From: Spirochaetia bacterium
GTDB taxonomy: Bacteria > Spirochaetota > Spirochaetia > CADAEX01
DNA length: 64,000 nt
Reading direction: 5' to 3'
Assembly: GCA_963662795.1 (NCBI GenBank)
Contig: OY759746.1
Coordinates: 3,136,001-3,200,000 of the forward strand
The notes beneath the pieces were generated by a model. It searched no databases and was not told where the DNA came from. It saw only the letters and a list, made by a program, of their open reading frames with translations. Numbering within the stretch: the stretch's first letter is position 1; each line of letters starts with the position of its first letter. Shown here one piece after another: positions 49,749 to 52,042 of the stretch. Made by a program: the position numbers and the translations under genes.

Positions 49749-50831
49749 TCAATTACAATTAATGGTCTTTTTACTAAACTCTATAAGATCTGAAAGTATT
49801 TTTATTTTATCGTAAATTGTGTAATACACGCTGACCGAAGAATTAACGAGAGATATTTTCTGAATGCAGTTATCATTTATTATTTCTGGTGATTGCGTTT
49901 TTATTCCCATAAAATTGAACCATTCACATAAATAGGTAATCATTGAGGTATCTTCTCCGGCTGCATCGCTTACAATAGCAATGGCATCGATACCTCCAAG
50001 AATTGCCATATAATAGCCGATGAATTTTATGATCTGATAAAAGTAAACTTCACGAATGGCAACTGCCTGTTCCGAAGTGTCTTTAAGGAATTCTCTGAAA
50101 TTTATGTTTCGGCCAAGGTATCCGCATATTCCGCTTTTGTTTTCAATAAGATCAACAATATCATGAATCTCCATTCCATATGCATGGAGTTCCATAAGCA
50201 TTGTCGGATCAATGTCCCCACAGCCGGTCATGGAAGGAAGCCCTTCGGCAGAGCTGAATCCAATGCTTGTTTCTATGGGTTGGCCTTCCTGTATGGCTGT
50301 GATATTTGTTTTATCCCCCAGATAAATACTGATAATTTTGGAAATTGAAGAATCATATTTTTGCTTTAGAATATCTGCAATCCATTTATGAGTTAACCCG
50401 AAACCGCCTCTTTTTGTAAAGGATGATTTTCTGAATTTTGACGGTATCGCGCAGATCAGGCTATCGTCAGGCAAAGCTGAAAAAAAAGCCTTATCGCTTA
50501 TTAATCGATGATGTGACTTTGGAAATAAAGCTGTAAAAAAATTGATTACACTGACAGTATAGAGGTCATTATTTGATAAACTGGCTCCGGCAGTATAAAG
50601 ATTATTGATTTGTATATTGCTGAGGTCTTCAATTGAATTCATCCCTTTAATAAGATCACTTTCCTGCAAATACCAGCATTCCTCAATATTTTCTTTCACG
50701 TTATAAGAAATGAATGTTTTAGACACTGTAAGCCAGTTTTCATATAACAGATCCGATTCCATAATAGATTGACAGTTTTTTATCAGAGTTAGTTTAATAC
50801 GGCTGGATTGGATATCAAGCAGTATATTCAC
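49749..50831 (-). CDS. Degenerate acetate-kinase-fold protein (probable pseudokinase)
   Basis: Keeps DKAFF, ETSIGFS..EG, CGDIDP, NKSG, LGGIDAI; lacks GHR, PLHN, FHG, the catalytic Arg and the terminal EE. Confidence 0.75.
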   Translation of the reverse strand: MNILLDIQSSRIKLTLIKNCQSIMESDLLYENWLTVSKTFISYNVKENIEECWYLQESDLIKGMNSIEDLSNIQINNLYTAGASLSNNDLYTVSVINFFTALFPKSHHRLISDKAFFSALPDDSLICAIPSKFRKSSFTKRGGFGLTHKWIADILKQKYDSSISKIISIYLGDKTNITAIQEGQPIETSIGFSSAEGLPSMTGCGDIDPTMLMELHAYGMEIHDIVDLIENKSGICGYLGRNINFREFLKDTSEQAVAIREVYFYQIIKFIGYYMAILGGIDAIAIVSDAAGEDTSMITYLCEWFNFMGIKTQSPEIINDNCIQKISLVNSSVSVYYTIYDKIKILSDLIEFSKKTINCN

Positions 50832-52042
50832 AGCAATACTTCCTCCATTTTATATAATTTGACAACTTCTTCTGCTATTACAATCTCTTCATCTGTAGGA
50901 ATTATGAGAATTTTAACAGTTGAGTCCTTACTGTCAATTCTGGCTATCATATCAGGTTGTGCCTGTGTGTTTTTCTCAGCATCAAGGTTAATTCCGCACC
51001 ATTTCATATCTGCACAAACCTGTTCTCTTATTTCTGCGCATTGTATTCCTACGTCATCTGTAAAAATAAGGCAATCGATACCCTGTAGCGCCGATATAAA
51101 TGCTCCAATATACCGTTTTACGCTGTGTATATACTTTTTCAGAGCGAGTTGTGACTTTACATCTTCAGGGTTTTTACTCCTTTCAATAATGTCACGTATA
51201 TCGCTGGACTTTTCACTCAGGGATAAAAGGCCGCTTTTATTGTTTAATATATTCTGCACTTCATCTATGGTATATCCGAAATCTGAAATTAAATTCATTG
51301 GGATAAATGCATCAATGTCTCCGCATCGTGTACTCATGACAATTCCAGGTATTCCTGTATAACCCATGGAAATATCGATGGATTTTCCATTTTTTACTGC
51401 ATTAATTTCCGAACCTCCGGTACCTAAATGGCAGATTATCATTTTTAATTTATCATTGGTTGTTTTTAAAATATCAGGAACAGTTTCAGTTATATACTGA
51501 AATGACAATCCATGGAAACCGTATTTTCTGAATCTGAATTTTTCTAAAATATGTTGCGGCAGTATGTACTGAAATGCCCTTTGTGGAATGTCCTTATGAA
51601 AGGCGTTGTCTGTTGTTACAAACTGAGGTATTTTGGGATAGATTTTTGCACAGGCTTTTATGGTCATTAATGCTACGGCATGGTGAATCGGGATAATGGG
51701 CACCAGTTTTTGCATTAAAGTCAGTAGGTTTTTATCAATTTCAGCAGTTGTAAAATTATCAAGCCCATTGGCCCATCTGTGCCCAATTATATCAATAGTG
51801 ACCTTGAGACGATTAATTGTCTCAAGAATAATTGTCACAGCTATCTGATGATTTCCAAGAGGAACTGTTTCAGTAAGATTAATATTCTCATTTTTAAATT
51901 CAATGAATGATGGTTTATCACCTTTAACCCCGACCCGATGTGCTTTACCTTTTAAAATTTCCTTAAGATTATCATTTTCCAGTGTTTTGTATACTTTAAA
52001 GGTTAAAGAAGAACTTCCCCCATTAAACACAAGTAAATTCAT
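50828..52042 (-). CDS. Acetate kinase family protein with Entamoeba PPi-dependent-type motifs
   Basis: FNGGSSSLTFK, YGFHGLS, CHLGTGGS, VMSTRCGDID, FTDDVGIQ, PTDEE. Confidence 0.85.
   Translation of the reverse strand: MNLLVFNGGSSSLTFKVYKTLENDNLKEILKGKAHRVGVKGDKPSFIEFKNENINLTETVPLGNHQIAVTIILETINRLKVTIDIIGHRWANGLDNFTTAEIDKNLLTLMQKLVPIIPIHHAVALMTIKACAKIYPKIPQFVTTDNAFHKDIPQRAFQYILPQHILEKFRFRKYGFHGLSFQYITETVPDILKTTNDKLKMIICHLGTGGSEINAVKNGKSIDISMGYTGIPGIVMSTRCGDIDAFIPMNLISDFGYTIDEVQNILNNKSGLLSLSEKSSDIRDIIERSKNPEDVKSQLALKKYIHSVKRYIGAFISALQGIDCLIFTDDVGIQCAEIREQVCADMKWCGINLDAEKNTQAQPDMIARIDSKDSTVKILIIPTDEEIVIAEEVVKLYKMEEVLL

What the first reader, a model, noticed from the sequence alone, without database searches (positions are those of the whole stretch)
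50828..52042. Bacterial acetate kinase with the signature motifs of the Entamoeba PPi-dependent enzyme
Seen: this kinase has CHLGTGGS (about 51410-51433), where ATP-type AckAs, including the neighbour at 52955-54232, have H[LI]GNG[AS]S. It also has FTDDVGIQ (about 51041-51064) in place of the adenosine motif F[TA][AG]G[IV]GEN, plus SSSLTFK and VMSTRCGDID. Established (recalled from the literature; confirm by alignment): Entamoeba histolytica acetate kinase (EC 2.7.2.12) uses PPi/Pi instead of ATP/ADP. It carries a Thr and an extra Gly in the PHOSPHATE2 loop (HLGTGGS) and an occluded adenosine pocket (FTDQMGLE), and has been described as the only PPi-dependent ACK. Inference: this is a bacterial member of that lineage and possibly a relative of the gene transferred into Entamoeba. 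The acyl pocket is also altered (GHRWANG for GHRVVHGG, PIHH, YTG for FTP), so the substrate may not be acetate.
Basis: partly seen in the sequence, partly recalled or inferred. Interest (0 to 1): 0.9.

Follow-up and report, generated by a model that had tools for sequence, protein, structure and literature searches.

The report
Bacterial Entamoeba-type acetate kinase gene module
This bacterial gene encodes an acetate-kinase-family enzyme of the same branch as the pyrophosphate-using enzyme of Entamoeba, and it travels with an inactive-looking copy of itself and an altered FolE2-like protein, so it is a good candidate for showing how some anaerobes make pyrophosphate.

Summary
ORF 50828-52042(-) is an intact 404-aa acetate-kinase-family protein carrying CHLGTGGS, FTDDVGIQ, SSSLTFK and MSTRCGDID at the stated coordinates.

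With the motif columns removed, an ML tree puts it in a 32-row clade with E. histolytica and Mastigella ACK (UFBoot 100 / SH-aLRT 99), apart from 39 canonical AckAs. Leave-out profiles agree.

The idea is not wholly new. Dang & Ingram-Smith 2017 listed a few bacterial sequences with these motifs as possible PPi-ACKs. My searches found none characterised. The target is nested deep among bacterial sequences, not next to Entamoeba.

New here:
- The gene is part of a conserved, sporadically distributed module: this ACK, a catalytically dead ACK paralog (49749-50831) and a FolE2-like protein lacking FolE2 motifs (52161-52958). An ATP-type ACK (52955-54232) joins it in 2 of 5 such loci.
- The genome has PPi-PFK, PPDK, membrane PPase, Pta and phosphoketolase.

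Most likely function: acyl-phosphate + Pi -> carboxylate + PPi. This is unassayed, and the acyl substrate is uncertain (Ala91, Gly230).

The parts
50828..52042 (-). Entamoeba-type ('TGG') acetate-kinase-family gene, 404 aa, catalytic residues intact
   Evidence: ORF. PF00871 330.7 bits. TIGR00016 339.3 bits. Clade with EhACK at 100/99. AF2 model pLDDT 90.2. Residues invariant across 40 clade members include N7, S10-12, R89, H120, D145, H177, H205, R239 and E385.
51410..51433 (-). PHOSPHATE2 loop CHLGTGGS: Thr in place of Asn, plus one extra Gly
   Evidence: Across the 159 TGG-type sequences aligned, 157 have T208; the extra Gly is absent from 39 of 39 canonical rows.
51041..51064 (-). ADENOSINE motif FTDDVGIQ: Asp-Asp where ATP enzymes have [AG]-Gly
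   Evidence: D329 in 158 of 159 and D330 in 140 of 159 TGG-type sequences. Canonical rows have Gly in 38 of 39.
51995..52015 (-). PHOSPHATE1 SSSLTFK: Lys moved from position 14 to 16, as in EhACK (SSSLTYK)
   Evidence: Alignment. T14 in 118 of 159 and K16 in 146 of 159.
51764..51784 (-). GHRWANG: Arg89 kept; Trp90 and Ala91 in place of MtACK Val92 and Val93 (acyl pocket)
   Evidence: The role of Val93 is taken from PMC5517563 and PMC3475010.
51353..51361 (-). YTG: Gly230 in place of MtACK Pro232 (acyl pocket)
49749..50831 (-). Degenerate ACK paralog (360 aa) that overlaps the target's stop by 4 bases; likely a pseudoenzyme partner
   Evidence: PF00871 120.4 bits, model positions 125-379 only. 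The equivalents of N7/GSSS, R91, H180, R241 and E384 are replaced or missing. Orthologs lie next to the TGG-type or SGG-type ACK in L016, L022-24 and L026, with a fragment in L025.
52161..52958 (-). FolE2-like T-fold protein (265 aa) without the FolE2 catalytic motifs
   Evidence: PF02649 86.7 bits. FolE2 equivalog 72.5 bits against a cut-off of 215. In the alignment to solved FolE2 the CPC, HNQRSH and GTHMSRF stretches are replaced. 45-50% identical copies lie beside the TGG-type ACK in L016 and L022-24.
52955..54232 (-). ATP-type ACK paralog (425 aa; HIGNGAS, FAGGVGEN) at the head of the cluster
   Evidence: PF00871 444.4 bits. Canonical profile 469.8 bits vs TGG profile 307.0 bits. A 64% identical ortholog lies in the L016 cluster.
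54242..54850 (-). TetR-family regulator, 9 bases upstream of the cluster's first ACK
   Evidence: PF00440 34.9 bits. A consensus-like promoter lies at 54908-54880 on the minus strand, 11 of 12 positions, but the scan as a whole is not above shuffles.
52119..52147 (.). Perfect 10-base inverted repeat (GAGAGGATGG / CCATCCTCTC, 9-base spacer) in the 118-base gap before the target gene
   Evidence: Read directly from the sequence. Function not tested.

Best explanation
The ORF encodes a catalytically intact phosphotransferase of the acetate-kinase family. It belongs to the same clade as the Pi/PPi-dependent acetate kinase of Entamoeba histolytica (EC 2.7.2.12).

I infer that it transfers the phosphoryl group of a short-chain acyl phosphate to Pi, giving the carboxylate and PPi, and does not use ADP/ATP. 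The reasoning is that the longer Thr-Gly-Gly PHOSPHATE2 loop and the two Asp residues of the ADENOSINE motif leave no room for adenosine.

The acyl group may be acetyl. Ala91 and Gly230 enlarge the pocket, however, so propionyl or another small acyl group is as likely.

The gene does not act alone. It belongs to a horizontally moving module with a dead ACK paralog and a FolE2-like T-fold protein that has lost the FolE2 motifs. The dead paralog keeps the segment that forms the ACK dimer interface, so it is probably a heterodimer partner.

Here, and in one metagenome locus, an ATP-type ACK is also in the cluster. Together the two kinases could run acetate + ATP -> acetyl-P + ADP and then acetyl-P + Pi -> acetate + PPi. 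The net reaction is ATP + Pi -> ADP + PPi, which would feed the genome's PPi-dependent phosphofructokinase and PPDK. Pta and phosphoketolase could also supply acetyl-P directly.

Shown: family, clade, motifs, module conservation and the genome's PPi enzymes. Inferred: the donor/acceptor, the acyl substrate, the complex and the cycle.
For: Family and intact catalytic set.

Clade with EhACK:
- Careful IQ-TREE of 75 rows and 369 columns, with the 5 motif regions dropped: a 32-row clade at 100/99, and 39 canonical rows on the other side at 100/99.
- The quick tree on all columns agrees.
- Leave-out HMMs: target +174.2 bits and EhACK +115.7 bits for the bacterial TGG profile; the three canonical paralogs of this genome score -163 to -174.

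Diagnostic characters present in the target: Thr208, the inserted Gly209, Ser237, Asp329 and a non-Gly residue at 330.

Published biochemistry:
- EhACK uses only Pi/PPi.
- Deleting the extra Gly on a Q323G-M324I background abolishes activity.
- Putting Gln-Met at MtACK Gly331-Ile332 cuts kcat 50-150 fold.
(PMC5517563 parts 1-3.)

Module:
- Dead ACK and FolE2-like protein lie beside the TGG-type ACK in 5 loci: the window, L016, and L022-24.
- In a 401-genome sample of the phylum, the module-type T-fold protein (45-49% identity, E <= 4e-78) occurs only in G000, G178, G244 and G254. These are exactly the genomes with a core TGG-type ACK.
- The invariant and near-invariant columns of the dead paralog cluster in residues 114-148. 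These align with the family insertion described as part of the dimer interface (PMC3475010).

PPi economy of the genome:
- H+-PPase 884.6 bits
- PPDK 1345.6 bits (over cut-off)
- PPi-PFK TIGR02477 814.1 bits against a cut-off of 587.95
- Pta 379.1 bits
- phosphoketolase N-domain 601.1 bits
- no family-I soluble PPase found

Against: - No enzyme of the bacterial part of the clade has been assayed, as far as my searches show.
- Three of the five published occluding residues differ (Q323D, M324V, E327Q). Val331 is the canonical state.
- Mutagenesis in EhACK, MtACK and E. coli ACK never converted donor specificity, so motifs do not prove the donor.
- By single-sequence score the target is no closer to EhACK (273 bits) than to Thermotoga AckA (274.9 bits).
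- The global fold does not discriminate: 4h0o is rank 6 and all ACK structures score TM 0.78-0.84.
- Recombinant EhACK is active alone, which gives no reason to expect partners.
- The role of the T-fold protein is unexplained.
- The ATP-type ACK is in the cluster in only 2 of the 5 FolE2-type loci.
- I could not inspect the adenosine pocket of the model, because no coordinates are given.
Confidence: 0.55

Rival explanations
1. It is a phosphotransferase of the EhACK clade, but its real phosphoryl partner or acyl substrate is something else. The conserved T-fold protein and dead paralog would form or present that compound, for example another phospho-donor or a non-acetate carboxylate. In that case 'acetate kinase (PPi)' would be the wrong name for the whole bacterial module.
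For: - The module with two non-canonical partners is tightly conserved.
- The T-fold family has its own invariant polar set (H60, H62, C108, C114, E48, K99, E173, D180, D195, H241), so it looks functional rather than decayed.
- The pocket varies. Of the 159 sequences aligned, 82 have Trp90 and 89 lack Pro at position 230.
- Dang & Ingram-Smith raised 'neither ATP nor PPi' for the Asp-bearing bacterial sequences.
- Entamoeba has no known dedicated source of acetyl phosphate, and the role of its ACK is unsettled.
- SGG-type relatives sit beside an M20-family hydrolase instead of the T-fold protein.
Against: - The carboxylate- and phosphate-handling residues of ACK are all kept.
- L022-24 keep an acetate-type pocket (F-V-L-F-P) inside the same module.
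- EhACK, a member of the clade, does use acetyl-P + Pi.
- No candidate compound can be named from the data.
Confidence: 0.25
2. It is an ordinary ATP/ADP-dependent acetate or propionate kinase whose nucleotide-site motifs have merely drifted. On this view it is one of five ACK paralogs in a fermenting bacterium.
For: - TIGR00016 is passed.
- Val331 is the canonical residue, and the SSDIRD Asp/Arg pair is also present in ATP enzymes.
- The genome already has several ACK paralogs.
- Ala at the Val93 position recalls propionate kinase. The correspondence with TdcD Ala88 is recalled from memory; the PDB titles show only that A88 variants were studied.
Against: - Gly331 of MtACK is Gly in 38 of 39 canonical rows, and replacing it cripples ATP use. 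Here it is Asp.
- Asn211 is replaced by Thr, with an inserted Gly, in 157 of the 159 sequences aligned.
- These states are fixed across a clade that includes the one enzyme known to reject ATP.
- E. coli ACK variants carrying the single EhACK residues lost affinity for ATP.
Confidence: 0.12
3. It is not an enzyme in vivo. It would be a regulatory or scaffolding ASKHA protein, or a decaying horizontally acquired gene.
For: - It is sporadically distributed: 0 of 40 near relatives, and 5 of 400 other genomes in the phylum sample, have a match at E <= 1e-80.
- The cluster's GC is slightly lower than the window's usual value, 0.356-0.374 against about 0.41.
- Its neighbour is a dead paralog.
Against: - The frame is open and full length, and all catalytic residues are kept.
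- Relatives at 45-57% identity keep the same invariant set across many phyla.
- The model is confident.
Confidence: 0.05

Closest known systems
Entamoeba histolytica acetate kinase (EhACK, EC 2.7.2.12; PDB 4H0O)
   Same: - Same family and same well-supported clade.
- Shares HLGTGGS with Thr and the extra Gly, Asp at EhACK position 322, SSSL-T-[FY]-K, MSTRCGDID and SSD-x-RD.
- Both organisms run PPi-PFK and PPDK.
   Different: - About 36-38% identity only.
- FTDDVGIQ against FTDQMGLE.
- Acyl pocket W-A-I-F-G against F-V-I-F-T.
- Embedded in a module with a dead ACK and a T-fold protein, whereas EhACK is active alone as a recombinant protein.
- The bacterium has Pta and phosphoketolase, which Entamoeba lacks.
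Putative PPi-ACKs of Anaerolineaceae and digester metagenomes listed by Dang & Ingram-Smith 2017
   Same: As described in print, they share the extended PHOSPHATE2 loop, the conserved Asp, and Asp at the Gln323 position. They are likewise uncharacterised.
   Different: - I did not have those four sequences, so their place in my tree is untested.
- The paper speaks of 'a small number' of sequences. The clade now spans many phyla by the sources' own names: Fibrobacterota, Elusimicrobiota, Omnitrophota, Planctomycetota, Bacteroidota and others.
- In the parts I read (1-3 of 5), the paper does not mention partner genes or the altered acyl pocket.
ATP-dependent acetate kinase (Methanosarcina thermophila ACK, AckA; EC 2.7.2.1)
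   Same: Same fold (TM 0.83-0.84 to 1g99 and 1tuy) and the same catalytic residues.
   Different: - HLGNG-S becomes HLGTGGS.
- F[TA][AG]G[IV]GEN becomes FTDDVGIQ.
- Lys14 is moved.
- The target is on the other side of a 100/99 branch.
Propionate kinase TdcD / PduW
   Same: A small residue at the Val93 position (Ala91). Family scores of 269-270 bits to the propionate-kinase NCBIfam models.
   Different: - Far below the equivalog cut-offs of 580-659 bits.
- The nucleotide-site motifs are of the EhACK type.
- There is no tdc or pdu gene context.
GTP cyclohydrolase IB (FolE2; PDB 2R5R, 3D2O), as the nearest relative of the module's T-fold protein
   Same: Matches PF02649. E = 6e-25 to 2r5r over residues 10-251.
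   Different: - 24-31% identity to the ordinary FolE2 of the phylum, against 45-49% to module copies.
- The CPC, HNQRSH and GTHMSRF stretches of the solved enzymes are replaced.
- The genome has a normal FolE (237.7 bits).

Membership tests
Acetate/propionate kinase family (PF00871, TIGR00016; ASKHA fold) | Profile match over the full length, above the curated cut-offs | tested here: met
   PF00871 330.7 bits, model positions 2-392 of 392. TIGR00016 339.3 bits against 293.4.
Acetate/propionate kinase family (PF00871, TIGR00016; ASKHA fold) | Catalytic and ligand residues (MtACK Asn7, Arg91, His123, Asp148, His180, His208, Arg241, Glu384) | tested here: met
   N7, R89, H120, D145, H177, H205, R239 and E385 are present and invariant in 40 clade members.
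Acetate/propionate kinase family (PF00871, TIGR00016; ASKHA fold) | Two-domain ACK fold | tested here: met
   AF2 model pLDDT 90.2, pTM 0.90. Foldseek TM 0.78-0.84 to solved ACKs.
Pi/PPi-dependent acetate kinase (EhACK type, EC 2.7.2.12) | PHOSPHATE2 with Thr in place of Asn and one extra Gly (EhACK Thr201, Gly203) | tested here: met
   H205-L-G-T208-G-G210-S.
Pi/PPi-dependent acetate kinase (EhACK type, EC 2.7.2.12) | ADENOSINE motif: Asp322 and a side chain at 323 in place of the invariant Gly | tested here: met
   D329 and D330. The residue at 323 is Asp, not Gln, as in the bacterial candidates of the 2017 paper.
Pi/PPi-dependent acetate kinase (EhACK type, EC 2.7.2.12) | The remaining published occluding residues, Met324 and Glu327 | tested here: not met
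   Val331 and Gln334. Within the clade, position 331 is Ile in 123 of 159 and position 334 is variable. These two are therefore Entamoeba traits rather than clade traits.
Pi/PPi-dependent acetate kinase (EhACK type, EC 2.7.2.12) | Common descent with EhACK to the exclusion of ATP-dependent ACKs | tested here: met
   100/99 clade with the motif columns dropped. Leave-out profile scores.
Pi/PPi-dependent acetate kinase (EhACK type, EC 2.7.2.12) | Occluded adenosine pocket in the structure | not testable with these tools
The global fold search does not discriminate.
Pi/PPi-dependent acetate kinase (EhACK type, EC 2.7.2.12) | Activity with Pi/PPi and none with ADP/ATP | not testable with these tools
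   Needs an enzyme assay. No published assay of any bacterial clade member was found.
Pi/PPi-dependent acetate kinase (EhACK type, EC 2.7.2.12) | Acetate pocket (MtACK Val93, Leu122, Phe179, Pro232) | tested here: inconclusive
   The target has Ala91, Ile119, Phe176 and Gly230. EhACK has Val, Ile, Phe and Thr. Two of the four differ from MtACK, so the substrate is open.
ATP-dependent AckA / TdcD | H[LI]GNG[AS]S and F[TA][AG]G[IV]GEN nucleotide-site motifs | tested here: not met
   CHLGTGGS and FTDDVGIQ. Canonical profile 408.8 bits against 583.0 for the TGG profile. No equivalog cut-off is reached.
GTP cyclohydrolase IB (FolE2), for the partner at 52161-52958 | Equivalog score and the conserved stretches seen in solved FolE2 | tested here: not met
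   72.5 bits against a cut-off of 215. The CPC, HNQRSH and GTHMSRF stretches are replaced. That these stretches carry the metal and catalytic residues is recalled from memory, not tested here.

The most novel reading that the evidence does not exclude
The Entamoeba-type kinase, its dead paralog and the remodelled FolE2-like protein form one hetero-oligomeric enzyme that is spread by gene transfer through anaerobic bacteria. With an ATP-type ACK, it would work as a dedicated ATP:phosphate phosphotransferase (ATP + Pi -> ADP + PPi through an acyl-phosphate carrier). That would make it the missing regulated source of PPi for PPi-dependent glycolysis. The lone ACK of Entamoeba would then be a stripped-down remnant of this machine.
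Probability: 0.15. Interest if true: 0.85.

Novelty: new variant of a known kind. Interest (0 to 1): 0.6.

Why it matters
**Only one assayed example.** PPi-dependent acetate kinase has been assayed in one organism only. Attempts to find what makes it choose PPi over ATP by mutating single residues failed.

**A large natural data set.** I aligned 159 sequences of the clade. They come from many bacterial phyla by the sources' own names, and the clade also holds two Archamoebae. This shows which characters are truly fixed: Thr208, the extra Gly, Ser237 and Asp329-Asp330. It also shows which are Entamoeba peculiarities: Gln323, Met324 and Glu327.

**An open question in PPi metabolism.** Bacteria with PPi-dependent glycolysis have an unresolved PPi budget; the Clostridium thermocellum study seen could not find the source. 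A PPi-forming acyl-phosphate kinase would be a direct answer for some anaerobes, and it can be tested with a simple assay. This one sits in a genome with PPi-PFK, PPDK and a membrane PPase, next to an ATP-type ACK.

**New partners.** The conserved pairing with a pseudo-kinase and a degenerate T-fold protein is, as far as my searches go, not described. It could change how the Entamoeba enzyme, whose substrate source is still debated, is understood.

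Tried and rejected
1. **Global fold comparison**. All solved ACKs match the model about equally (TM 0.78-0.84) and 4h0o is rank 6. This is useless for telling ATP from PPi.

2. **Profile of alignment A2 against the PDB**. 4h0o came first (531.6 bits against 459 for 2iir). 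A2 contains the E. histolytica sequence, so this is circular. I replaced it with the leave-out test.

3. **The search for related loci with the single protein in genome contigs**. The metagenome scan gave only one locus, L016.

4. **Complex prediction** of target + dead paralog + T-fold protein. The answer was 'no answer', score 0.00. This is no evidence either way.

5. **The look-up of sequencing runs**. No RNA holder is listed, so expression was not examined and read laying was not used.

6. **Promoter and terminator scan**. 32 promoter-like sites against 25.7 +/- 5.6 in shuffles, and 4 terminator-like sites against 4.5. Nothing is above chance, so operon boundaries rest on gene spacing only.

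7. **PADLOC**. 0 of 5 cluster proteins match a defence family. I dropped the idea of a defence system.

8. **Protein atlas for the T-fold protein**. It returned only FolE2 clusters and added nothing.

9. **Word-based search with the dead paralog**. It found only 9 proteins, because the family is too divergent for that index. Its range is therefore unknown.

10. **Origin of the dead paralog.** I considered that it is a recent tandem copy of the target. I rejected this because all 6 dead paralogs score 30-58 bits better on the canonical profile than on the TGG profile. They also lack the extra Gly.

11. **Rows left out of the tree:**
   - 17 near-duplicate TGG-type rows, named in the script
   - fragments under about 360 aa
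   - two of every three canonical representatives, and those outside 380-450 aa
   - all dead paralogs, because of their long branches

Full report
**What is there.** Window 50828-52042 (minus strand) is an open 404-aa frame. It matches the acetokinase family end to end: PF00871 at 330.7 bits and TIGR00016 at 339.3 bits against a cut-off of 293.4. It reaches none of the NCBIfam equivalog cut-offs for acetate, propionate or butyrate kinase.
- CHLGTGGS = residues 204-211 = 51410-51433
- FTDDVGIQ = residues 327-334 = 51041-51064
- SSSLTFK, VMSTRCGDID, GHRWANG, PIHH and YTG

The neighbour at 52955-54232 has the canonical HIGNGAS and FAGGVGEN. The recalled Entamoeba motifs are right. The solved chain 4h0o and the stored E. 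histolytica protein P0270 read HLGTGGSS, FTDQMGLE, SSSLTYK and MSTRCGDID.

**More than chance.** The word-indexed search found 3645 proteins at E <= 1e-20 among 7805 candidates, and the best 120 were listed. All 120 carry CHLGTGG[SA]. Of these, 118 gave FTD[DQ]xG, and my pattern found nothing in the other 2. Where the sources give a name, the names are uncultured Fibrobacterota, Elusimicrobiota, Omnitrophota, Sedimentisphaerales, Bacteroidota and Raymondbacteria. After one 97% identical protein, the closest are 57% and 55% identical.

The exhaustive search of 50%-identity representatives found 12051 family members at E <= 0.001. Among its best 150, 18 carry HxGTGG. Three of these matter here:
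- P0128, which listing of cluster members names as Entamoeba dispar ACK
- P0270, E. histolytica, in the same cluster
- P0126, from the free-living archamoeba Mastigella eilhardi

**Is it of the Entamoeba lineage?** By single-sequence score the answer is unclear: 4h0o scores 273 bits and Thermotoga AckA 274.9 bits. I therefore built trees.

A quick IQ-TREE on 86 rows put all 47 rows with the extended loop on one side of a branch (support 92). Entamoeba fell inside a 45-row clade together with the target (support 98). The motifs themselves could drive that grouping. So I removed the five motif regions, which were alignment columns 50-60, 281-287, 314-322, 345-352 and 455-463, and ran the careful search on 75 rows and 369 columns. 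The result:
- A 32-row clade holds the target, E. histolytica and Mastigella at UFBoot 100 / SH-aLRT 99.
- The 39 canonical rows, including this genome's three canonical paralogs, lie on the other side at 100/99.
- An intermediate group lies outside the core. It consists of P0130 and three 'HLGSGGAS' sequences.

A separate test used profiles built without Entamoeba, Mastigella and the target:

| Sequence | Bacterial-clade profile (bits) | Canonical profile (bits) |
|---|---|---|
| EhACK | 497.1 | 381.4 |
| Target | 583.0 | 408.8 |

The genome's canonical paralogs score 163-174 bits the other way. Membership in the clade is therefore well supported.

The target is not near Entamoeba within the clade. 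It sits in an 8-row bacterial subclade (100/99). Entamoeba joins Mastigella and two unnamed sequences only weakly (76/68).

**What was already known.**
- I read parts 1-3 of 5 of Dang & Ingram-Smith 2017 (PMC5517563). [quoted passage not shown]
- Passages of Nagata et al. [quoted passage not shown] They list five occluding residues: T201, D322, Q323, M324 and E327.
- The 2017 paper also has a section 'Other possible PPi-dependent ACKs'. It names four Anaerolineaceae proteins and some digester-metagenome sequences. These have the extra Gly, the conserved Asp, and Asp at the Gln323 position. [quoted passage not shown]

The category 'bacterial sequences with the EhACK signature' is therefore in print, uncharacterised. 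My full-text searches found no assay of any of them.

**Reading the active site.** All catalytic residues of the family are kept.

The characters that separate the core clade from canonical enzymes in my alignment are few. They are Thr for Asn211, the inserted Gly, Ser for Gly239 (MSTR against MGTR), and a non-Gly residue at MtACK 331. Added to these are Asp at 330 and the shift of Lys14 to position 16. The target has all of them.

Across the 159 sequences with the extended loop that I aligned:
- D329 is in 158.
- D330 is in 140.
- Position 331 is Ile or Val in 144.
- Position 334 is variable.

Gln323, Met324 and Glu327 are therefore Entamoeba peculiarities, not clade traits.

Published kinetics bear on these positions:
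- Gly331Gln-Ile332Met cuts MtACK catalysis 50-150 fold.
- Removing the extra Gly on an EhACK Q323G-M324I background abolishes activity.
- No set of substitutions converted the donor in EhACK, MtACK or E. coli ACK.

The motifs therefore make ATP use unlikely, but they do not prove PPi use.

**The acyl pocket.** The four pocket residues of MtACK are Val93, Leu122, Phe179 and Pro232.

| Protein | Pocket residues |
|---|---|
| MtACK | Val93, Leu122, Phe179, Pro232 |
| Target | Ala91, Ile119, Phe176, Gly230 |
| EhACK | Val, Ile, Phe, Thr |
| Mastigella ACK | Val, Leu, Phe, Pro |

 About half of my sample has the Trp90 / His121 / non-Pro230 flavour of the target: Trp90 is in 82 of 159. The sample is biased towards the target's relatives.

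Val93 limits chain length. In the Salmonella AckA model it touches the extra methyl of propionate (PMC3475010, passages). A larger acyl group than acetyl is therefore plausible, but it is not shown.

**Surroundings: a conserved module.** All genes from 54850 down to 49749 are on the minus strand:
1. TetR (54242-54850)
2. an ATP-type ACK (52955-54232)
3. a FolE2-like protein (52161-52958), whose start overlaps the previous stop by 4 bases
4. a 118-base gap holding a perfect 10-base inverted repeat
5. the target
6. a 360-aa degenerate ACK (49749-50831), which overlaps the target's stop by 4 bases

*The degenerate copy.* It matches only the C-terminal two-thirds of the family model (120.4 bits). 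It lacks the equivalents of Asn7/GSSS, Arg91, His180, Arg241 and Glu384.

*The FolE2-like protein.*
- It scores 72.5 bits against the FolE2 equivalog, whose cut-off is 215.
- Aligned with the solved FolE2 proteins 2r5r and 3d2o, it has other residues in place of their CPC, HNQRSH and GTHMSRF stretches. That these stretches are the catalytic ones is my recollection.
- Its own family keeps an invariant polar set: H60, H62, C108, C114 and others.
- The genome has an ordinary FolE elsewhere and no other PF02649 match.

*The same genes elsewhere.* They recur together in other organisms.
- Metagenome locus L016 (high-GC by inspection of its ORFs; ACK 49% identical) has, in order, FolE2-like (50% identity), TGG-type ACK, dead ACK (30% over 256 residues) and ATP-type ACK (64%).
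- Three genomes of one other genus in the same phylum (G178, G244, G254; ACK 45-46% identical by tblastn) have TGG-type ACK, dead ACK and FolE2-like in a row. They keep an acetate-type pocket.
- Two further genomes with the intermediate 'SGG' type have an M20-family hydrolase, the ACK and a dead ACK.

*Co-occurrence in the phylum sample.*
- 6 of 401 genomes, counting the window's own, have an ACK match at E <= 1e-80.
- The module-type T-fold protein (45-49% identity) is found only in G000, G178, G244 and G254. The other 87 genomes with a match have ordinary FolE2 at 24-31% identity.
- None of 40 nearer relatives has better than a 39% identical ACK. This set includes two genomes of the same genus, 81% and 95% complete. 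The 11 best loci all have the canonical loop.
- The cluster's GC (0.356-0.374) is a little below the window's usual value of about 0.41.

The module therefore looks horizontally acquired as a unit.

*A proxy for other phyla.* 9 of the 120 listed ACK relatives have the same longest-contig length as one of the 120 listed FolE2-like relatives. One such pair is named Elusimicrobiota.

*The dead paralogs.* They are not recent copies of their partner. All 6 score 30-58 bits better on the canonical profile. Their conserved columns cluster in residues 114-148. These align with the family-specific insertion described as part of the ACK dimer interface. This is why I think they pair with the active kinase. 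That is inference. The complex prediction gave no answer.

**Metabolic setting.** The single-contig genome (3.93 Mb, 98% complete) encodes:
- a membrane PPase (884.6 bits)
- PPDK (1345.6 bits, over the cut-off)
- a PPi-type phosphofructokinase (TIGR02477, 814.1 bits against 587.95)
- Pta
- a phosphoketolase

No family-I soluble pyrophosphatase was found. Family II was not searched. It has five PF00871 genes in all.

This is the PPi-based glycolysis of Entamoeba, plus the two classical sources of acetyl phosphate that Entamoeba lacks. In Mastigamoeba, phosphoketolase is proposed to feed the PPi-forming ACK (PMC8136499, passages).

**Most likely mechanism.** Acyl phosphate + Pi gives carboxylate + PPi, in line with EhACK. 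The reaction would take place on a heterodimer with the dead paralog. The role of the T-fold protein is unknown.

Where an ATP-type ACK is in the same cluster, the two kinases would together give ATP + Pi -> ADP + PPi, with acetate as a catalytic carrier.

My probabilities:
- about 0.95 that the protein belongs to the EhACK clade
- about 0.55 for the full main reading, which takes in Pi/PPi as its phosphoryl couple
- about 0.4 that acetyl is the preferred acyl group
- about 0.15 for the full 'PPi-synthase machine' reading

**Verdict.** The claim of uniqueness is softened by the 2017 paper. The function remains to be assayed.

The conserved module with a pseudo-kinase and a remodelled T-fold protein is the new element, together with the breadth of the clade and the PPi-based metabolism of this genome. 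These make the locus a good first target for biochemistry.

Noticed in passing
window 49749-50831 (-): A third ACK-family gene in the cluster. It has lost the catalytic residues but is conserved at 30-37% identity next to Entamoeba-type ACKs in other organisms. It appears to be a family of ACK pseudoenzymes.
   Followed up: partly
window 52161-52958 (-): A FolE2-like T-fold protein that lacks the conserved stretches of solved FolE2 but has its own invariant His, Cys and acidic set. In the phylum sample it co-occurs exactly with the Entamoeba-type ACK. Its function is unknown.
   Followed up: partly
window 52955-54232 (-): The ATP-type ACK of the cluster has unusual NCGTSS (not GSSS) and DTAFFQ (not DTAFHQ) stretches, and a C-terminal YDVHTNFTYSFQ tail. 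It is 64% identical to the cluster ACK of metagenome locus L016. In the tree it groups with the genome's long AckA (G000:C1:3200577-3201746), whose best solved relative is Treponema vincentii AckA.
   Followed up: partly
window 52119-52147: A perfect 10-base inverted repeat with a 9-base spacer in the gap between the FolE2-like gene and the target. It could be an operator or an RNA hairpin.
   Followed up: no
L025 118-2983 and L026 5884-9389: In two other genomes of the phylum, an intermediate 'HLGSGGAS / FTDTIGE' ACK type sits between an M20-family hydrolase gene and a dead ACK paralog. This is a second kind of module.
   Followed up: partly
window 14001-22000: A stretch of markedly low GC (0.278-0.338, against about 0.41 elsewhere in the window). 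It may be an acquired island. I did not look at it.
   Followed up: no
proteins P0139, P0166, P0191, P0207, P0249, P0262: Canonical ACK domains that begin at about residue 170 of 570-776-aa proteins. These are N-terminal fusions of unknown kind among the family representatives.
   Followed up: no
window 48387-49025 (-): A DTW-domain protein (PF03942, 167.2 bits) lies downstream of the cluster after a 723-base gap. It is probably unrelated to the cluster.
   Followed up: no
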